A stretch of 64,000 bases of DNA. It comes from Candidatus Ghiorseimicrobium undicola (GTDB lineage Bacteria; Omnitrophota; Gorgyraeia; Ghiorseimicrobiales; Ghiorseimicrobiaceae). The notes beneath the pieces were generated by a model, which made no database searches, was not told the origin of the DNA, and saw only the letters and a program-made list of their open reading frames with translations. The stretch spans positions 3,238-67,237 of the forward strand of contig PCWA01000084.1 in NCBI GenBank assembly GCA_002796125.1. The letters run 5' to 3'. Of this stretch, positions 4,795 through 64,000 are shown piece by piece (the stretch's first letter is position 1; every line of letters starts with the position of its first letter). A program made the translations under genes and the position numbers.

Positions 4795-5835
4795 TTACCT
4801 GTCTTTTTTAATATAATTACTATAGTTAGTGCTCAACTCTTTAAGGCTGTCCGAGCCGAATTTCTCCAAGAAAGCATTGGCTAATTCAAAGGCAATTACC
4901 GCCTCGGCAACTACAGAACATGCTTCTACCGCGCATGTATCATAACGCTCAACAGCTGCTTTGGAGGCTTTTTTATTTAGCATATTTACGGAAGGAAGCG
5001 CGTTGCCTACCGTTGATATTGGTTTCATGCAGGCACGGATTACGAGCGGCTGGCCGTTAGTCACGCCGCCTTCTAACCCGCCCGCATTATTAGTTTTGCG
5101 GTAAAAATTATGTTTTTTATCATAATATATGGCATCATGGACGCCTGATCCAAACTGACCGGCATAGCCAAAGCCCAATCCGATCTCAACCGCTTTAACT
5201 GCCGGTATTGACATTACTGCCGCAGAAAGCCGCCCATCAAGACGCCTGTCACAATGAACATAAGAGCCTAGCCCTATAGGCAGATTGAATGCCCTAACTT
5301 CAAATACTCCGCCTAAAGTATCTTTGTTTTTTTTCGCTTCATTAATTTTACGCTTTATGTCCGAATAATTATAAACACCGCCGATCTGGCAAATACTGCT
5401 ATTTATTTTTATTTTAAACTCCGCAAGCAACATTTTGCATATTGCCCCTACCGCCGTGCGCGCGGCAGTTTCACGGGCGGACGCACGCTCCAAAACACAC
5501 CTTATATCATCAAAACCATACTTAAGAACACCTGCCAAATCAGCATGCCCCGGCCGGGGAGAATAAACAGCCGGTAGTTTTTCTATTTTATAATCCTTAT
5601 TTTTTATTAAAACCGCGATGGGGCTGCCTATAGTTTTATTCCCTTTTACGCCGGAGAGAATCTCCGCCCTATCCCTTTCTATTTTCATTCTGCCGCCGCG
5701 CCCTGCGCCGCCCTGCCTGCGAATAAGCTCTAAATCTATTTTTTTGACATCAAGGTTTAATCCGGAAACCATCCCTTCTAAAATAGCTACTAAACCTTTA
5801 CCGTGAGATTCGCCCGCGGTTAAAAATCTTAACAT
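4795..5835 (-). CDS. aroC: Chorismate synthase
   Basis: 346 aa; MLRFLTAGESHGKGLVAILEGMVSGL N-terminus and RSSARETAARTAVGAI signature. Confidence 0.9.
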   Translation of the reverse strand: MLRFLTAGESHGKGLVAILEGMVSGLNLDVKKIDLELIRRQGGAGRGGRMKIERDRAEILSGVKGNKTIGSPIAVLIKNKDYKIEKLPAVYSPRPGHADLAGVLKYGFDDIRCVLERASARETAARTAVGAICKMLLAEFKIKINSSICQIGGVYNYSDIKRKINEAKKNKDTLGGVFEVRAFNLPIGLGSYVHCDRRLDGRLSAAVMSIPAVKAVEIGLGFGYAGQFGSGVHDAIYYDKKHNFYRKTNNAGGLEGGVTNGQPLVIRACMKPISTVGNALPSVNMLNKKASKAAVERYDTCAVEACSVVAEAVIAFELANAFLEKFGSDSLKELSTNYSNYIKKDR

Positions 5836-5848
5836 AGCAACCCCTTTT

Positions 5849-6622
5849 TTAATATCCGTAAAATAACAATTTAATTATCGCGTTTCCATAAAAAAGCGAT
5901 AATACGGCTCCCAAAGACAAAAATGGACCATAGGGAATCAAATGGCCTTTCTTTTGAATTAAAACTATAATCCCGAATATGGCTCCGAAAAACGGCGCAA
6001 TAAAAAAAGCGACTATTGCCAATTTCCACCCTAAAAAGGCGCCAATTGCCGCCATCAGCTTAACGTCGCCGAAACCCATAGCATCTTTTCTAAACAACAG
6101 CGTCCCTATTAATCCAATAAGGTAAGTAAGCAGGCTGGCGGATAACGCCCCAATAAAAGAATAGAATATGCCTTCTATCCGCGAAACAACCCCATCCTGC
6201 ATTTCGGGAAAAATAAAACTCAAAATTAAGCCTAAGGCCAACCCGCCGAGAGAGACCTCATCGGGAATAATACGGTATTTAATATCAACGAAGCTGGCTA
6301 TCAAAAGCAGGCTGAAGAATAGCGCGTATATAAAAAAATCTGCCGTTAACCCGTAGTATCTAAACAGACCCAAAAAAACTGAGGCTGTTATCAATTCCAC
6401 GATAAAATACCTGGCAGGAATACTCATATTGCAATATCTGCATCTGGCGCGCAGTAAAATATAACTTACCAAAGGGATATTATCATACCACTGAATTTTA
6501 TTATTGCAGCATGGGCACCTCGAGCCGGGCATTACAATTGATTCCGCCTTGGGCATACGGTATATGCAAACATTCAGGAAACTACCCACGATAGAACCAA
6601 AAATAAATATAAAAATACTCAT
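5849..6622 (-). CDS. pilD: Prepilin peptidase (A24 family, type IV leader peptidase/N-methylase)
   Basis: 257 aa polytopic membrane protein; N-terminal Cys tetrad CPCCNNK...CRYC; GFGDVKL catalytic motif. Confidence 0.85.
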   Translation of the reverse strand: MSIFIFIFGSIVGSFLNVCIYRMPKAESIVMPGSRCPCCNNKIQWYDNIPLVSYILLRARCRYCNMSIPARYFIVELITASVFLGLFRYYGLTADFFIYALFFSLLLIASFVDIKYRIIPDEVSLGGLALGLILSFIFPEMQDGVVSRIEGIFYSFIGALSASLLTYLIGLIGTLLFRKDAMGFGDVKLMAAIGAFLGWKLAIVAFFIAPFFGAIFGIIVLIQKKGHLIPYGPFLSLGAVLSLFYGNAIIKLLFYGY

Positions 6623-7023: not shown

Positions 7024-7542
7024 TCAGGCGGAAAGATTGTTTCGCGCGCCGAATACGTAATTGGCTATTACCTGGCGGTCTCTTTCATCAATCTTTATAA
7101 ACTCAATACCTACTTCAAATCTAATGCGATTGTCATCCCCAACGATAAAATCATCCTTCCAGACAACCCGGCCTTCAGCAAGCAAAGGAAAATCCTGCTC
7201 AGGCAAATAAATATTCAGTTTTAATTGCGAGCCGATTTCTATATCCTCATAAACTATAAGGCAGATACCTCCGGCGCTGATGTTTTTAGTATTGCCTGAT
7301 TCGGACGAATCTTTATGCACAATCTTATAATCTACGAGCACTGACAAATTGAGGCGGGAAAATTTCCGCTTTTCTTTAAAATCATCAGCTGGCATATTTT
7401 CAACCTCCTTATTGACTTTTACTTTACCAATAGCATTAAGGTAGTCAATATTTCGCTTATGTTTTGCGGAATTTTTACCATTACCATTAGTTGTACAAAG
7501 CTCAGCAAGATTATCTTTGGCTTCGGCAAAACTTGGCACCAT
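7024..7542 (-). CDS. PilZ domain protein, paralog of the upstream gene with an N-terminal extension
   Basis: 172 aa; EKRKFSRL and NISAGGICLIVYEDIEIGSQ. A 62-bp DNA stretch is identical to the adjacent PilZ gene. Confidence 0.7.
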   Translation of the reverse strand: MVPSFAEAKDNLAELCTTNGNGKNSAKHKRNIDYLNAIGKVKVNKEVENMPADDFKEKRKFSRLNLSVLVDYKIVHKDSSESGNTKNISAGGICLIVYEDIEIGSQLKLNIYLPEQDFPLLAEGRVVWKDDFIVGDDNRIRFEVGIEFIKIDERDRQVIANYVFGARNNLSA

Positions 7543-26499: not shown

Positions 26500-26503
26500 A
26501 TTC

Positions 26504-26600
26504 GTAGGTTACGAACACCCGCCCATTCCATTAAGGGCGGGGTGTAGTAGGTTACGAACACCCGCCCATTCCGCTAAGGGCGGGGTGTACGTAGATTACT
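26504..26600 (-). repeat. Tandem 43-nt GC-stem hairpin repeat (2.2 copies) between yvcK stop and ptsH start
   Basis: gtaggttacgaacacccgcccattccNNtaagggcggggtgta occurs twice in tandem plus a partial third unit. Each unit folds as cacccgccc / gggcggggtg. Confidence 0.7.
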
Positions 26601-42712: not shown

Positions 42713-42962
42713 CAAAAAAAAATCCCGAAGATTCTCTTCGGGATTAAACAAATAAAGCTCTCTAAAATATTCCTCTGGCTTATGCCAAACCGATGGCTTT
42801 ATCTTCTCTCATCTAGACTTTACTATTGGCTCTGGAATCGCACCAGCTCTGTCCTGCTTTTTTAGCAAGACTCGTAGGCTTTCATCCGGCGTTAAAGGAA
42901 GCGCCGATGTGCGCATGCTGCGCAACTACCAGTCGGGAATTACACCCTGCCCCGAAGATTCA
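42713..42962 (-). promoter_or_regulatory. FMN riboswitch (RFN element) with intrinsic terminator, controlling the ribBA operon
   Basis: The minus-strand leader reads ...TCTTCGGGGCAGGGTGTAATTCCCGACTGGTAGT...GCCAATAGTAAAGTCTAGATGAGAGAAGATAA, a match to the conserved FMN aptamer core. It is followed by the hairpin AATCCCGAAGAGAATCTTCGGGATT plus T9 (42713-42745), then GAGG and the ribBA ATG. Confidence 0.85.
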
Positions 42963-59936: not shown

Positions 59937-61202
59937 TCAAAGTAAACACTTCTTTTTTATGCCGGATTTATCTTTATCGGAAACCGGCCCTATTACAGCT
60001 AAATTTATTTTTTCATCGCTAAAAATTTTTCCTGCCAGGCGTTTTATATCATCAACATCAACCTTTTCCAATTCTCTGATTATTTCCGCGTGCGTCCTGA
60101 CTTTATCCAGCGAAATCGTCTGCTCCCCCATATAAAACATTTCTTCCATCGTCTGCTCTAAGGCGAAAGTCAGCTGCCCTAGATAAAAATCCTTTGCCCG
60201 CTGAAATTCCGAATCGCTGACATATTCGCTTTTTATCTTATTGAGCTCTTTAAAAATTATTTCTAATGCCTGGCATAATTTATTATTATCAACTCCGGCA
60301 TGAACAATAAAAGCTCCCGTATCGGCCAACTGTTTGAGGTGGCTGCTAATTGCATAAGCCAGGCCTCTTTTTTCCCTCAATTCATCAAAAAGGCGGCTGG
60401 ACATATTAGCCCCTAAAATGATATGAATAAGCATAAGCGCGTGCCTGTCGGGATGGCCGCGCCGCAACGCCTCAAAACCCAGGGCGATATGGCTCTGCTC
60501 GGTATTTTTGAAAAATAAATTAAAAGATTTTTTGCTTTGCTGATTAAATGCGCTAAAGCTATTTTTACTGCCCTTTGACAGCCTGCTTAAATGCCTGGTA
60601 CAAATATTTAAGAATTCTTCATGACTAACATTTCCGGATGCAACCGCCACAATATTAGGCGAAGAATAAAATTTATTGTTAAACGACAGTATATCTTCCT
60701 GTTTTATTTTTTTCACAGTATCAAATGTGCCGGCCAAATTCATGCCCAAGGGATGCCCCGGCCAAAGAAGCTCATCCAGCAATTCATAGACATAGCTCTG
60801 AGGCTGATCACGATACATGCGTATTTCTTCCAGTATAACAAACCGTTCTTTTTCCAGCTCCTTCTTATCTACTAAAGGATTCACCGCCATATCGGAGATT
60901 ATTTCAAAAGATTGCTCCAGATACTTGGGAAGAACCTTGGCCAAATAACAGGTGAATTCTTCTGCCGTAAAAGCATTGAGCGAGCCCCCCACGCCTTCGA
61001 TTAATTGCTTGATTTGCTCGCCGCTAAAACGTTTTGACCCCTTAAAGCACATATGCTCAAGAAAATGCGAGATGCCATTGTTCTTTTTGGTCTCAAACCT
61101 GCCGCCCACACCGAACCATAAACCAAAAGATGCCGACCGCATATTCGGCATATGGCAGGTCACAACCCGTACTCCGTTATCCAATACTGTTTTTTTATAC
61201 AT
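59937..61202 (-). CDS. M16 family zinc peptidase (insulinase-like)
   Basis: True start MYKKTVLDNGVRVV at the ATG 61202-61200; HFLEHMCFKGS inverted zinc motif HxxEH. The ORF-track N-terminal extension to 61385 is read-through of a repeat region. Confidence 0.75.
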   Translation of the reverse strand: MYKKTVLDNGVRVVTCHMPNMRSASFGLWFGVGGRFETKKNNGISHFLEHMCFKGSKRFSGEQIKQLIEGVGGSLNAFTAEEFTCYLAKVLPKYLEQSFEIISDMAVNPLVDKKELEKERFVILEEIRMYRDQPQSYVYELLDELLWPGHPLGMNLAGTFDTVKKIKQEDILSFNNKFYSSPNIVAVASGNVSHEEFLNICTRHLSRLSKGSKNSFSAFNQQSKKSFNLFFKNTEQSHIALGFEALRRGHPDRHALMLIHIILGANMSSRLFDELREKRGLAYAISSHLKQLADTGAFIVHAGVDNNKLCQALEIIFKELNKIKSEYVSDSEFQRAKDFYLGQLTFALEQTMEEMFYMGEQTISLDKVRTHAEIIRELEKVDVDDIKRLAGKIFSDEKINLAVIGPVSDKDKSGIKKKCLL

Positions 61203-61205
61203 TTT

Positions 61206-61479
61206 GTCAGTTAGACAACACTTGCGCAATACCTTATAAGCGCAAGGTGTATCAGTTAGGCAACACTTGCGCAATTTGCCGATCAGGCAACACCGGCGCA
61301 ATTCCTTTAAGCGCCGGGTGACATATAAGCGCGAGATGTAAAAACCCTCAAGGCACGGCGGCGCAATTTCCCAGCACGGAAACACTGGCGCAATACAATT
61401 AAGCGCCAGGTGTTAATTAAGCGCCGGCCGCCTTATAAGCGCGGGGTGTGTCAGTTAGGCGCTATTTATTTAAGCGCTT
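61206..61479 (-). repeat. Array of 4 or more GC-stem/AT-loop hairpins of identical architecture, between trpA stop and the M16 peptidase start
   Basis: Units of the form cacNNgcgc-aatNNNNNttaa-gcgcN'N'ggtg. Stems are acacttgcgc/gcgcaaggtgt (61218-61250), caccggcgc/gcgccgggtg (61290-61320) and cactggcgc/gcgccaggtgt (61382-61413), plus gcgc-tatttatttaa-gcgc (61459-61477). The direct-repeat heads (g/a)caacacNNgcgcaat occur four times. Confidence 0.7.
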
Positions 61480-62260
61480 TTGACAAACCGGCTGCAAAAC
61501 GCCCCGTAACTTTAACTAAATCTTTCTTCCGCGAATTAACGGCTATTACCTTGACAATAGCGCTGCCTACTATAACACCGTCACAAAAAGAAGATAAATA
61601 CCTGACATGCCCGGGTTTTGATATTCCAAAGCCAACGCATACCGGTTTTTTAGTATGCCGTTTAATCAGAGAAATTCTTTTCTTTAAATCGGAGGAGATT
61701 TTTTTCCGCGCCCCGGTTACGCCGGCCAGAGAAACATAATAAATAAATCCGCTGGAAAAAGCAGCTGCCATTTTTATTCTTTTAACATCGCTGGTAGGAG
61801 AAATAAAAAAAATGGTATCCAATTTATTTCCCCTGCTGTATTGCATAAACTCCTTAGCTTCTTCCGGAGGTAAATCAGGAATGATAACGCCGTCTACGCC
61901 CGCGTAAGCCGCTTTTTCCGTAAATAAAGGCAACCCCATTTTGTATATGGGGTTATAATAAGACATAAGGCATAGTGGTATATTAACCTCTTTACGTATA
62001 GATTTTACCAAAGCAATGATCTTTCTAAGGCTTGTTCCTTTGCCTAACGCGCGCTTAGATGCCGCCTGTATCACCGGCCCATCTGCCAAGGGATCTGAAA
62101 AAGGAACCCCCAGCTCGATTATATCAACGCCCTGACGTTCCAGCTCAAATATTAATTTCTTGGTAACCCTAAGGTCGGGGTCTCCTGCGGTAATATAAGC
62201 AATAAAAGCACACCTGCCCTTTTTCTTTAATTCATTGAATTTTCTATCAAGGCGCTTCAT
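61466..62260 (-). CDS. trpA: Tryptophan synthase alpha chain
   Basis: 264 aa; TrpA family ([22 protein letters not shown]). Confidence 0.9.
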
Positions 62261-63441
62261 AGTTTTATTCCCAAAACATCTGCCACCGTATTTACGTCTT
62301 TATCGCCTCTGCCGGAAAGGCAAACTATAATCAAATCGTTTTTCTTAAACCCGCGCCCTGCCCTAACAACATAAGCAAGCGCATGTGCGGACTCCAAGGC
62401 AGGAATTATACCCTCGGTTTTAGATAAAAGCTTAAAAGCTTCAAGCGCCTCCTTATCCGTGGCCGAGGTATATTCAGCCCGTTTTATCTTTTTAAATAAG
62501 CTATGCTCAGGGCCAACCCCGGGATAATCAAGGCCGGCTGATATAGAATGCGCTATCTCAACCTGTCCGTCTTTATCCTGCAGCATATAGCTTAAAGACC
62601 CGTGCAAAACTCCTTTTGAACCGCGGCATAAAGCGGCCGCGTGCTTACCGCTTGATAAACCCAGGCCAGCGGCTTCCACCCCCACAAATTTTGTTTTATC
62701 TTCCAGGAAGGGGTAAAATAGCCCCATGGAATTACTGCCCCCGCCCACACAAGCAACTAAATATGTAGGCAGCTTTCTTTCTTGTTTCAAAATCTGTTTT
62801 TTTGCTTCAATTCCTATTACGCATTGAAAATCCCTTACAATCACCGGATAAGGGTGAGGGCCGGCGGTTGAGCCGATAAGATAATAGGTGTTGTCCACAT
62901 TTGTAACCCAATCCCTTATTGCTTCATTCATAGCGTCCTTAAGCGTGCGGCTGCCTGAAGTAACAGGTAGAACATCAGCGCCAAGCATCTTCATGCGGAA
63001 AACATTTAACGACTGCCGCTTTATATCTTCCTCGCCCATATAAATACAGCATTGAAAATTAAACATGGCGCAGACTGTGGCCACTGCCACTCCATGCTGT
63101 CCGGCCCCTGTTTCGGCAATAATCCTTGCCTTCTTCATATGCTTAGCCAATATAATCTGGCCCAATGTATTATTTATTTTATGCGCCCCGGTGTGCAACA
63201 AGTCTTCCCTTTTTAAGTATATTTTAGCAAGGCCCAATTTTTTGCTTAAATTAGCGGCAAAATATAACGGCGTGGGACGGCCGGCATAATGGGATAGATA
63301 ATAATTTAATTCGCCGCGGAAAGATTTATCTTTCTTGATTTTTCTATATTTTTTTTCCAAATCATCAAGCATCCCCATTAATGTCTCAGGGACAAACCTG
63401 CCGCCGAATTCCTGGAAGTGCCCATATTTATCAGGAAGCAT
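62257..63441 (-). CDS. trpB: Tryptophan synthase beta chain
   Basis: 394 aa; PLP Lys region HTGAHKINN and GGGSNSMG motif. Overlaps trpA by 4 nt. Confidence 0.9.
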
Positions 63442-63464
63442 TTTTCTACCTCGTTAATAAAAGA

Positions 63465-63971
63465 CTACTCGCTTGTATACTCATTCATAACCATATTTAT
63501 ATCACCGAGAAAAAACGGCCCGGATATTTTTACCGGAATGCCTTTATTGGAATTTTCAAACCATATCTTATGCCCCTTTGGAAAACTCTCGGCCAAATAA
63601 GCCATATATTCGCCGGAAGGAACGCTAACAGAAACTTCTTTCGTAAAACGCATAATTAATTTAGATAAAGGCAATGTGACCGTAAAATCACTGCCGATTT
63701 CAAAACCCCCTATTTTACGGAAAAGATAAGTCAATAAAATAACATTTTGAATATTATCATCCTGCTTTATTTTGCGCACGCTGGTACGCTTACCGTTTAC
63801 CCGCGTAATTTTAACAGCATTGTTATCCTGGTCGTATTCTTCCACTATATATATCTTCTTACCCCAATTCTTTATATCCCTTTCTATTCTCAGGGGCAAA
63901 AAAGTATCAATATCGGCAAACATTGTTTCGCGGTCTTTAAAATTGGCTGTGTTTGTTTCAAAAATTATCAA
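63465..63971 (-). CDS. Hypothetical protein
   Basis: 168 aa ORF with a TTG start; no recognisable motifs. The true start may be an internal Met. Confidence 0.3.
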   Translation of the reverse strand: MIIFETNTANFKDRETMFADIDTFLPLRIERDIKNWGKKIYIVEEYDQDNNAVKITRVNGKRTSVRKIKQDDNIQNVILLTYLFRKIGGFEIGSDFTVTLPLSKLIMRFTKEVSVSVPSGEYMAYLAESFPKGHKIWFENSNKGIPVKISGPFFLGDINMVMNEYTSE

Positions 63972-64000
63972 ATGCGCATCTTTATCATTTAGCCTTGTCC

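What the first reader, a model, noticed from the sequence alone, without database searches (positions are those of the whole stretch)
61206..61479. Array of same-architecture GC-stem/AT-loop hairpins with co-varying stems between trpA and the M16 peptidase gene
About 270 bp of non-coding sequence (locally ~50% GC) contains at least four hairpins built to one plan: a stem cacNNgcgc, an 11-12-nt A/T loop that starts aat and ends ttaa, then the stem gcgcN'N'ggtg. The internal NN pair differs between units (tt/aa, cg/cg, tg/ca), always keeping complementarity. Around them are nested longer pairings and four direct repeats of (g/a)caacacNNgcgcaat. The ORF caller read straight through it; the repeated KCCLTD peptide is an artefact. 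The true peptidase start (MYKKTVLDNG) lies just downstream. The spacing is not CRISPR-like and the repeats are not identical, so this is not a CRISPR array. The stem covariation argues for a structured RNA (a long leader of the peptidase mRNA or a 3' trailer of trpBA) or for cruciform DNA, rather than a sequence-specific operator. I cannot assign it to a known element class.
Basis: seen in the sequence. Interest (0 to 1): 0.65.

Follow-up and report, generated by a model that had tools for sequence, protein, structure and literature searches.

The report
Omnitrophota double-hairpin repeat piled before a gene
The hairpin array is a local pile-up of a roughly 45-base two-hairpin repeat that is scattered through genomes of the phylum Omnitrophota, nearly always on the transcribed strand just ahead of a gene's ribosome-binding site; I found no Rfam family and no paper describing it.

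Summary
The region 61203-61481 holds three complete hairpins built to one plan. Two of them are nested inside larger copies, and there are also partial copies. The stems co-vary.

It is not a leader specific to trpA or to the peptidase. The same unit gave at least 119 exact-pattern loci in 61 species-representative assemblies, 54 of them labelled Omnitrophota. The window holds a second site at 26501-26587.

The functional strand is the gene strand, which is the minus strand here. The module is H1 (CACC-NN-GCGC-UUA..AUU-GCGC-N'N'-GUG, with a bulged C), followed directly by hp2, a small hairpin of free sequence, followed directly by the Shine-Dalgarno sequence or the start codon.
- Orientation is about 9:1 sense.
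- The downstream genes are diverse housekeeping genes.
- Copies nest inside each other's loops, and one sits inside a cobalamin riboswitch loop.
- Presence at orthologous genes is patchy. Relatives have trpA and the peptidase gene overlapping by 8 nt with no element, so this array is a lineage-specific insertion that gave trpA a new tail and stop codon.

Best reading: a REP/MITE-like duplicative element that is co-transcribed and folds in the mRNA. It probably affects the stability or translation of the downstream cistron. The mechanism is inferred, not shown.

The parts
61203..61481 (-). The whole inserted array, from just 5' of the M16 start codon to the last codons of trpA
   Evidence: Relatives have trpA and M16 overlapping (..aATGTATAA) with nothing in between. 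The same strain is identical in 6 contigs, and two contigs break inside the array.
61205..61217 (-). hp2 of unit 1 (UGUCUAACUGACA), ending 2 nt before the M16 ATG, with no Shine-Dalgarno sequence
   Evidence: Sequence. General hp2 rule.
61218..61249 (-). H1 unit 1, simple form, free pair type UU/AA
   Evidence: Covariance-model match, 50.2 bits; pattern match.
61250..61262 (-). Degenerate hp2 (UGCCUAACUGAUA) belonging to the nested module upstream
   Evidence: Sequence. It is 90% identical to the copy at 61431-61460 in repeat family D5.
61263..61338 (-). Nested module. Outer H1 halves at 61321-61338 (5') and 61263-61276 (3') enclose the inner H1 (61290-61320, CG/CG) and its hp2 (61277-61289).
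   Evidence: Inner H1 scores 54.5 bits. The same nested architecture recurs in about 20 other loci.
61352..61432 (-). Nested module. Outer, diverged H1 halves at 61413-61432 (5') and 61352-61369 (3') enclose the inner H1 (61382-61412, UG/CA) and its hp2 (about 61368-61381).
   Evidence: Inner H1 scores 48.2 bits. The minimum-free-energy folds recover the outer pairing.
61431..61448 (-). Orphan 5' half of an H1 (CACCCCGCGCUUAUAAGG) with no matching 3' half
   Evidence: Sequence; weak covariance-model half-match at 61421-61442.
61459..61477 (-). Truncated H1-like hairpin (GCGC-UUAAAUAAAUA-GCGC). Its loop supplies the present trpA stop codon (61466-61468) and the last residues KALK.
   Evidence: The C-termini of trpA in relatives differ from this point on.
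61466..62260 (-). trpA (upstream gene)
   Evidence: Pfam Trp_syntA.
59937..61202 (-). M16 peptidase gene (downstream gene), true start MYKKTV
   Evidence: Pfam Peptidase_M16 and Peptidase_M16_C; 421-aa homologues.
26501..26587 (-). Second locus of the same family: two tandem H1+hp2 units with the compensatory stem variant GCCC/GGGC, between a yvcK-like gene and ptsH. hp2 ends 1-2 nt before the ATG.
   Evidence: 34.8 and 33.2 bits; sequence and ORFs. The orthologous junction in L095 is TAGgcATG with no element.
42883..42925 (+). Probable decayed copy (H1-like plus hp2-like) in the divergent ribBA / cinA-like intergenic region, sense to the + strand gene
   Evidence: 16.1 bits, E = 0.015. Weak.

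Best explanation
The array is a local accumulation of a small dispersed repeat family specific to the phylum Omnitrophota. It contains three complete units, two enclosing units and two partial units.

The unit is about 45 nt and is read on the transcribed strand. It has two parts:
- H1 is a 9-10 bp hairpin with conserved sequence, CACC-NN-GCGC / GCGC-N'N'-GUG. It has a bulged C and an 11-12 nt loop, UUA...GGWAUU.
- hp2 follows with no spacer. It is a 4-6 bp hairpin of free sequence, usually with an NNGU tetraloop. It ends flush against the Shine-Dalgarno sequence, or in this genome 2 nt before the AUG.

Shown:
- The unit behaves as a discrete DNA insertion/deletion cassette.
- It is gained and lost between species.
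- It is found inside the loops of its own copies and inside another RNA's hairpin loop.
- It stacks up in tandem.
- Here it was inserted into what was an 8-nt overlap between trpA and the M16 gene, and it gave trpA a new C-terminus and stop codon.

Inferred:
- It spreads by an unknown copy-and-insert process that recognises the conserved H1 hairpin, in the manner of REP or MITE elements.
- It is kept almost only where it is transcribed in the sense orientation just 5' of a translation start.
- There it folds in the mRNA, uncouples the downstream cistron from the upstream one, and most likely shields or processes the mRNA. H1 would be a recognition or 3'-protecting hairpin, and hp2 a 5'-proximal stabiliser next to the ribosome-binding site.
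- That would favour expression of the downstream gene, which is often a highly expressed one.
For: Dispersal:
- Up to 7 strict copies were seen per genome in this truncated sample.
- The covariance model finds 31 further, diverged copies in the 837 kb of pattern-matched loci and 2-3 loci in the 64-kb window.

Folding:
- 97% Watson-Crick pairing at the free NN/N'N' positions, with 6 pair-type combinations.
- Compensatory variants occur at 7 of 9 stem pairs; 98.7% of cells are paired; 0 of 500 shuffles reach this.
- hp2 is present in 93% of 122 unique tails against 7% of shuffles, with 47 different stem arms.
- The base before H1 is A (77) or G (37) of 124 and faces the U after the stem. The G.U option only works on the sense strand.

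Transcribed-strand placement:
- 84 sense against 3 antisense relative to an SD-plus-start within 130 nt. The distance from H1 to the ATG peaks at 22-30 nt, and at 49-54 nt for nested forms.
- An upstream same-strand stop codon lies 0-27 nt away in 46 cases.
- In first-gene cases, sigma-70-like promoters lie 20-54 nt upstream. The distance is variable to the promoter but fixed to the SD.
- Orientation follows the gene rather than GC skew in the 6 discriminating cases.

Cassette behaviour:
- The tuf leader differs between L084 (filled) and L097 (empty) by exactly H1+hp2, inserted just 5' of GGAGG.
- trpA|M16 overlap in L126, L128 and L129, and yvcK|ptsH is empty in L095.
- About 20 nested forms were seen.
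- One full module sits in a hairpin loop of a cobalamin riboswitch.
- In an unbiased check, only about 1 of roughly 45 non-anchor orthologues of module-bearing genes carries it.

Downstream genes: 101 Pfam families among 80 genes, including acpP, rpsF, rplT, rpsG, tuf, hup, dnaK, skp, eno, pfk and glnA.
Against: - No enzyme that could move the element was identified. The only Y1 transposase found (L015) is flanked by unrelated repeats.
- No target-site duplication is visible at the tuf site.
- hp2 differs between copies within one genome, which is unexpected for recent copy-paste.
- H1 sequence is nearly constant across species whose enzymes are only 55-60% identical. Species-specific REP families do not do this, and it hints at a conserved host factor and real function.
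- The RNA-level effect is untested. Predicted accessibility of the SD is not improved by the module: 0.50 native, 0.46 with the module shuffled, 0.55 with it deleted.
- About 10% of copies are inverted (L008/L111, L026, L061).
- One pair of copies lies upstream of an rRNA promoter rather than next to a start codon.
Confidence: 0.55

Rival explanations
1. The module is primarily a host-selected RNA signal rather than a selfish repeat: a phylum-wide 'punctuation' or expression cassette. A conserved Omnitrophota protein (an endoribonuclease, an RNA chaperone, or a NusG/Nus-type factor) recognises H1 through the bulged C and the UUA..AUU loop. It cleaves or binds there, leaving hp2 as a 5' stabiliser flush with the ribosome-binding site. 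This sets the expression of abundant proteins encoded inside operons.
For: - H1 sequence is near-invariant across 61 species, while hp2 keeps only its structure.
- Placement relative to the SD is fixed, while placement relative to promoters is not.
- The strand bias follows transcription.
- Many downstream genes are classic high-abundance genes: tuf, acpP, r-proteins, hup, dnaK, ptsH.
- In nested forms the inner and outer stems usually carry different NN pairs, as expected if correct folding matters.
- The same position before tuf carries a different hairpin insert in L027, which suggests that a hairpin there is what is selected.
Against: - Presence is patchy among orthologues, at about the background rate in the unbiased sample.
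- The closest relatives of the window genome show no copy in 42 kb.
- Copies also occur in places where such a signal has no obvious use: a tRNA-Pro leader, upstream of an rRNA promoter, inside a riboswitch loop, and in inverted orientation.
- Piles of 5-7 units, as seen here, are hard to justify functionally.
- No exact-pattern hits in viral contigs.
Confidence: 0.3
2. It acts as double-stranded or cruciform DNA: a binding or recombination site for a DNA-binding protein, such as a nucleoid protein, an operator, an integron attC-like site or a Xer-like site.
For: - The stem sequence (GCGC, CAC/GTG) is conserved more than a structure-only RNA helix requires.
- Both strands fold, and the + strand has the better z-score in the window: -5.1 against -2.8.
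- One outer pairing in the window is G.T on the + strand.
Against: - Compensatory changes keep the pairing rather than a fixed sequence.
- The two half-sites are not symmetric: there is a conserved bulge, and UUA against AUU at the loop.
- The downstream genes do not form a regulon.
- Position is tied to the SD and not to promoters.
- The flanking genes are syntenic core genes, not cassettes.
- There is no GTTRRRY-type core.
Confidence: 0.07
3. It is an intrinsic terminator or attenuator between trpA and the peptidase gene, or a gene-specific riboswitch-like leader.
For: The hairpins are GC-rich and sit between two genes.
Against: - No U-tract follows any unit on the gene strand, and the terminator scan finds nothing within the array on that strand.
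- Only about 25 nt (hp2 plus SD) separate H1 from the next start, so there is no room for a promoter.
- No Rfam family matches.
- The same unit precedes about 100 unrelated gene families.
- It is absent from orthologous trpA-M16 junctions.
Confidence: 0.04

Closest known systems
REP / BIME (PU) elements of enterobacteria and pseudomonads, with their RAYT transposases (from established knowledge)
   Same: - Short imperfect GC-rich palindromes.
- Many copies per genome.
- Confined to extragenic but transcribed regions, including spacers between cistrons.
- Occur singly or in clusters.
- Known to act as mRNA 3' stabilisers, and to affect translation of the upstream gene when close to its stop codon.
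   Different: - There is no conserved GTAG-type 5' tetranucleotide.
- Units are in direct, nested or tandem arrangement, not inverted pairs (REPIN/BIME).
- Orientation is about 9:1 with transcription.
- Position is fixed against the downstream ribosome-binding site rather than after the upstream gene.
- The unit carries a second hairpin of free sequence.
- One sequence family spans a whole phylum instead of a species or genus.
- No RAYT link was found.
Mycobacterial interspersed repetitive units (MIRU) (from established knowledge)
   Same: - 40-100 bp units.
- Lie in spacers between cistrons of operons.
- Oriented with the operon.
- Variable in tandem copy number between lineages.
- Can supply stop or start signals to the neighbouring genes, as the H1-like loop does here for trpA.
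   Different: - MIRUs are direct repeats, not hairpins with co-varying stems.
- They are not nested.
- They are restricted to mycobacteria.
Small hairpin-forming MITEs that are co-transcribed, such as Correia (Neisseria), ERIC/IRU and RUP/BOX (from established knowledge)
   Same: - Non-autonomous, dispersed and intergenic.
- Fold in the mRNA and change its processing or stability.
- Presence or absence varies between related genomes.
   Different: - Those elements are 100-150 bp, with terminal inverted repeats and target duplications (TA for Correia).
- They insert in either orientation.
- Here the unit is about 45 nt, no duplication is seen at the one clean filled/empty pair, and the unit is strongly oriented.
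5' stabiliser hairpins next to the ribosome-binding site (ompA 5' UTR, Bacillus aprE and ermC leaders) and synthetic insulators such as RiboJ (from established knowledge)
   Same: - Same architecture: a structured element followed by a small hairpin that ends at the ribosome-binding site.
- Expected effect on mRNA half-life and on independence from upstream context.
   Different: - Those are single-gene elements or engineered parts, not a repeated family.
- H1 has no ribozyme signature (no Rfam hit).
- Predicted SD accessibility is not improved by the module.

Membership tests
REP/BIME (RAYT-associated) | Short imperfect palindrome, multi-copy, extragenic | tested here: met
   At least 119 loci in 61 assemblies, and 2-3 loci per 64 kb. 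All are outside coding regions, except where the insertion clipped the 3' end of a gene.
REP/BIME (RAYT-associated) | Conserved GTAG-like tetranucleotide at the 5' foot of the hairpin | tested here: not met
   The unit starts R|CACC and ends GUGU. The flanks show only W-R-R.
REP/BIME (RAYT-associated) | Copies organised as inverted pairs (REPIN/BIME) | tested here: not met
   Copies in one locus are direct, either tandem or nested.
REP/BIME (RAYT-associated) | A RAYT (Y1 transposase) gene flanked by the repeats | tested here: inconclusive
   One Y1_Tnp gene was found in 0.93 Mb of held sequence (L015). It is flanked by unrelated inverted repeats, not by H1. Whole genomes could not be scanned.
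MITE | Terminal inverted repeats plus a target-site duplication | tested here: inconclusive
   The H1 arms could count as inverted repeats, but hp2 lies outside them. No duplication is seen in the tuf filled/empty pair. Only one clean pair was available.
CRISPR array | Near-identical direct repeats separated by unique spacers of regular length | tested here: not met
   Spacings are 45, 27, 65 and 27 nt. Repeats are 71-86% identical and nested. No tandem array is detected.
Integron attC | R''/R' core sites (RYYYAAC ... GTTRRRY) at the 3' ends of mobile cassettes | tested here: not met
   No such cores are in the unit. The flanking genes are syntenic housekeeping genes.
Intrinsic terminator | GC-rich hairpin followed by a U-tract | tested here: not met
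   H1 is followed by hp2 and the SD. The scan finds no terminator inside the array on the gene strand.
Any Rfam family (riboswitch, leader, ribozyme) | Match to a curated covariance model | tested here: not met
   There are no meaningful hits at E up to 10 over 60800-61900. At gathering score, 17 loci that each hold a module gave no family centred on the module. The only overlap is a cobalamin riboswitch that contains a module as an insertion.
Gene-specific cis-regulatory leader | Conserved upstream of one gene family or regulon | tested here: not met
   101 Pfam families among 80 downstream genes. It is absent at orthologous trpA-M16 and yvcK-ptsH junctions.
mRNA processing / stabiliser hairpin | Defined RNA ends or altered half-life at the element | not testable with these tools
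   This needs transcript end-mapping or decay measurements in an Omnitrophota culture or enrichment.

The most novel reading that the evidence does not exclude
Omnitrophota use a phylum-wide, modular RNA 'punctuation' cassette, H1 plus hp2. A dedicated and still unknown protein recognises it to cut or protect polycistronic mRNAs and to set the output of abundant proteins. The cassette propagates to new genes by inserting into purine-rich single-stranded loops and ribosome-binding-site regions. That would make it a mobile gene-expression signal, distinct from REP, MIRU and known leaders.
Probability: 0.25. Interest if true: 0.8.

Novelty: new variant of a known kind. Interest (0 to 1): 0.6.

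Why it matters
Omnitrophota are uncultured or barely cultured ultra-small bacteria, and nothing is known about how they control gene expression.

- **A handle on mRNA organisation.** A 45-nt cassette sits exactly between stop codon and ribosome-binding site in dozens of operons per genome and is conserved in sequence across the phylum. That makes their mRNA organisation directly testable with existing metatranscriptomes and with RNA pull-downs.
- **Annotation and assembly.** The repeat breaks assemblies (contigs L005 and L006 end inside the array). It makes ORF callers read through, giving a 482-aa artefact and wrong starts. It can rewrite the C-terminus of the upstream gene, as it did for trpA here.
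- **A taxonomic marker.** A covariance model of H1 is a cheap marker for this phylum in metagenomes.

Tried and rejected
- **Rfam.** A search at E up to 10 on the region and at gathering score on 17 loci gave nothing relevant.
- **Tandem repeats.** Tandem Repeats Finder found no array.
- **Promoter reading of H1.** There are no sigma-70 hexamers at fixed positions. The loop varies (TTAGCGG, TTATTTG and others) and the stems co-vary. Real promoters lie upstream at variable distance.
- **Terminator reading.** No U-tract follows the hairpins.
- **Anti-SD sequestration.** No conserved complement to the SD was found in the module.
- **'SD-presenting insulator'.** Predicted SD accessibility is 0.50 native, 0.46 with the module shuffled and 0.55 with it deleted. 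This gives no useful support.
- **G.U against A.C counts in hp2 stems, to pick the strand.** The stems are almost all Watson-Crick, so this is uninformative. Position -1/U32 gave the strand signal instead.
- **Conservation of H1 between orthologous pairs as evidence of selection.** Rejected as biased, because both members were found by the same pattern. It was replaced by the non-anchor orthologue test.
- **Replication-strand (IS200/IS605-like) orientation.** Gene direction predicts orientation better than GC skew does, although the two are confounded in most loci.
- **Viral contigs.** No exact-pattern hits.
- **RAYT link.** One Y1 transposase was found, flanked by unrelated repeats.
- **Literature.** The Omnitrophota papers searched do not mention such a repeat, and the general REP searches added nothing.

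Full report
**1. What is in the window**

All local genes run on the minus strand. trpB lies at 62257-63441 and trpA at 61466-62260. An M16 peptidase follows, with its real start MYKKTV at 61202. Between trpA and the peptidase lie about 265 nt.

Read on the gene strand, this spacer contains:
- three complete hairpins of one design, at 61249-61218, 61320-61290 and 61412-61382;
- two larger, partly decayed copies of the same design, whose loops enclose the second and third hairpins;
- an orphan 5' half-copy;
- a truncated hairpin that overlaps the trpA stop codon.

The core pattern occurs 3 times against 0.04 expected by chance. All five GCGCAAT and all seven TAAGCGC words point the same way. 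The 482-aa ORF that runs through the region is an artefact. Six contigs of the same strain are identical here, and two of them end inside the array.

**2. The unit is a dispersed repeat of one phylum**

I scanned one genome per species (GTDB) for ACACNNGCGCAAT-N4-8-TAAGCGCNNGGTG. About 0.3 chance hits are expected. They come from 61 assemblies. 54 are labelled Candidatus Omnitrophota or Omnitrophica, including the complete genome of Ca. Velamenicoccus archaeovorus. The rest are loosely labelled MAGs.

A covariance model of the hairpin finds 31 more, diverged copies in the 837 kb of pattern-matched loci. In the window itself it finds a second site with two units at 26515-26587 and a weak third at 42883. 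That corresponds to roughly one locus per 30-50 kb. Nothing matches in Rfam, in IMG/VR viral contigs, or in the Omnitrophota literature I could search.

**3. Anatomy**

Oriented with the neighbouring gene, the module reads as follows.
- A purine precedes the module.
- H1 follows: CACC-NN-GCGC, then a loop UUA-N4-6-(G)G-W-AUU, then GCGC-N'N'-GUG. One C is bulged.
- hp2 follows with no spacer. Its first base is the U after GUG. It has a perfect stem of 4-6 bp and usually an NNGU tetraloop.
- AAGGAG follows, again with no spacer, then 5-9 nt, then ATG.

Evidence for pairing:
- The two positions left free by the search pattern are Watson-Crick paired in 240 of 248 cells. The types are CC/GG (68), CG/CG (33), UG/CA (9), UU/AA (4) and others.
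- Diverged copies carry compensatory changes at almost every other stem position: GCGU/ACGC, ACGC/GCGU, GCCC/GGGC, GGCC/GGCC, UACC/GUA and CGCC/GGCG.
- On the model-fitted alignment, 98.7% of cells pair, 7 of 9 pairs show double changes, and 0 of 500 shuffles reach this. The alignment is fitted to the model, so this leans towards the structure.
- hp2 is found in 93% of 122 different tails against 7% of shuffles, with 47 different stem arms.
- The base before H1 is A in 77 and G in 37 of 124 copies, and it can pair with the U after the stem. The G.U option exists only on the gene strand, which identifies that strand as the folded one.

About 20 loci show the nested form seen in the window: an outer H1 whose loop holds a complete inner H1 plus hp2. 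The inner copy usually carries a different NN pair from the outer one.

**4. Where it sits**

Of 117 strict copies with enough flanking sequence, 84 have an SD-plus-start within 130 nt downstream in the sense orientation only. Three have one in the antisense orientation only. The distance from H1 to the ATG peaks at 22-30 nt, with a second peak at 49-54 nt for nested forms.

In 46 cases a same-strand ORF stops 0-27 nt before H1, often 0-3 nt. The module then fills the spacer between two cistrons.

Where the gene is first in its operon, good sigma-70-type promoters lie 20-54 nt upstream of H1. An example is TTGACA-16-TATAAT in L041. The module is therefore in the 5' UTR, at a variable distance from the promoter and a fixed distance from the SD.

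Orientation tracks gene direction rather than GC skew in the 6 cases that separate the two.

The downstream genes span 101 Pfam families among 80 genes. Many are abundant housekeeping proteins: acpP, rpsF, rplT, rpsG, rpsT, tuf, hup, dnaK, skp, eno, pfk and type III glutamine synthetase.

Exceptions exist:
- a nested copy in the 5' leader of tRNA-Pro;
- two copies between a gene end and the rRNA promoter;
- inverted copies, for example between tRNA-Thr and rpmG in two species;
- a full module inside a hairpin loop of a cobalamin riboswitch aptamer.

In the window genome, only about 19 of 52 genes have an SD. At both strong loci there, hp2 ends 1-2 nt before the ATG with no SD.

**5. It is an insertion here and a labile cassette in general**

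Relatives of the peptidase at 53-70% identity keep the trpB-trpA-M16 order. In L126 and L128, trpA and the peptidase gene overlap by 8 nt (..aATGTATAA). In L129 they overlap by 1 nt. L127 has an unrelated 108-nt spacer. None has H1 anywhere in 42 kb, searched with filters off.

The window's array was therefore inserted into a formerly overlapping, presumably translationally coupled, junction. The trpA reading frame now ends in the loop of the truncated H1-like hairpin, which gives it a new tail, KALK. The yvcK-ptsH junction is similar: it reads TAGgcATG in L095 and carries two units in the window.

The cleanest filled/empty pair is the tuf leader. L084 equals L097 plus exactly H1+hp2(+AA), inserted just 5' of GGAGG, with no visible target duplication. 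L062 has a nested form at the same spot, and L027 has a different hairpin insert there.

I also ran an unbiased check: orthologues of module-bearing genes that happen to lie elsewhere in the held loci. Only about 1 of roughly 45 carries a module, which is about the background rate. Gain and loss are therefore frequent. The element is not a conserved regulator of particular genes.

**6. Interpretation**

What is shown:
- This is a phylum-specific, dispersed cassette that inserts and deletes as a discrete unit.
- Its hairpins are maintained by pairing.
- It is overwhelmingly found on the transcribed strand, immediately 5' of translation starts.
- It can nest in its own loop and pile up.

What is inferred is how it moves and what it does.

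A purely selfish REP/MITE-like element explains the patchiness, the nesting, the riboswitch-loop copy and the arrays. It does not easily explain four things:
- the zero-spacer juxtaposition to the SD;
- the 9:1 orientation;
- the free but always-paired hp2;
- a single H1 sequence across species whose enzymes are only 55-60% identical.

A purely host-selected RNA signal explains those four features but not the patchiness or the odd contexts. I therefore favour a combined reading. The element is duplicative, and its copies persist where they are co-transcribed and useful or harmless. In the mRNA it uncouples cistrons and probably acts as a processing or stability module: H1 as the recognised hairpin, and hp2 as a 5'-proximal hairpin next to the ribosome-binding site.

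This functional part is inference. The one computational test I could make of the 'exposes the SD' idea gave no real support. I could not identify a mobilising enzyme. The only Y1 transposase seen is tied to a different repeat.

**7. Comparison with known elements, and verdict**

The element works most like REP/BIME elements, MIRUs and co-transcribed hairpin MITEs. It fails several defining REP features:
- it has no GTAG foot;
- it forms no inverted pairs;
- no RAYT link was found;
- its range is a phylum rather than a species.

It is not a CRISPR array, an attC site, a terminator or any Rfam family.

My verdict is a new family and a new variant of the known kind 'small dispersed intergenic hairpin repeats'. 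Its unusual property is a placement tied to the ribosome-binding site and to the direction of transcription. Interest is moderate to high, because existing metatranscriptomes and complete genomes could settle the mechanism quickly.

Noticed in passing
window 26501-26587 (-): A second locus of the same repeat: two tandem H1+hp2 units with the compensatory stem variant GCCC/GGGC, between a yvcK-like gene and ptsH (HPr). hp2 ends 1-2 nt before the ATG, with no Shine-Dalgarno sequence. The orthologous junction in L095 is TAGgcATG.
   Followed up: yes
window 42883-42925 (+): A weak (16-bit), probably decayed copy in the divergent region between ribBA and a cinA-like gene. It is oriented with the + strand gene.
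   Followed up: partly
L126 9047-9207; L127 1326-1544: The closest relatives lack H1. They carry a different conserved, repeat-rich spacer between trpB and trpA (aatgacgaatgactaaatccgaatgacgaat ... attcggatttcggattt). It may be another hairpin element or a trp-related leader.
   Followed up: no
L062 about 4940-5050; L029 about 5960-6070 and 7350-7450; L015 5634-5645 and 6209-6220: A separate large palindromic repeat (GGGGACGGTTCTATTTTT ... AAAAATAGAACCGTCCCC) lies upstream of genes in two MAGs. It resembles the inverted repeats (GGGGGACAGTTCT) that flank a Y1_Tnp (RAYT/IS200-like, Pfam E = 8e-17) gene inserted between ftsW and murG in L015. This looks like a conventional REP/RAYT system, distinct from H1.
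   Followed up: partly
L064 about 1535-1560; L069 about 2130-2190; L115 about 7270-7300: Another small palindrome, CCTGCCTRCCGGCAGGCAGG, lies next to H1 modules in three genomes, including V. archaeovorus.
   Followed up: no
L050 6366-6613: A cobalamin riboswitch aptamer (74.5 bits) tolerates a 47-nt H1+hp2 insertion in one of its hairpin loops.
   Followed up: partly
L094 about 175-275; L114 about 1250-1350: Directly after a module lies a 33-aa, extremely basic ORF (MPCGKKRKRQKIKTHKRKKMRRRLRHLKKRAWG), conserved in two species. It is reminiscent, from memory, of the small ribosomal protein bS22. It is probably missed by annotation.
   Followed up: no
window 62257-64000 and L001, L126, L129: A DUF3108 gene is conserved inside the trp operon (trpC-trpF-DUF3108-trpB-trpA). 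The operon is followed by M16 peptidase, a DUF5679 mini-gene, rsfS and argS in the window and its relatives.
   Followed up: no
window, whole: GC skew is strongly negative along all 64 kb, and 48 of 52 long ORFs are on the minus strand. Only about 19 of 52 starts have a recognisable Shine-Dalgarno sequence.
   Followed up: partly
L005 and L006 (contig ends), window about 61353: Two independent metagenome contigs of the same strain end at the same base inside the array. This shows that the repeat breaks short-read assemblies.
   Followed up: no
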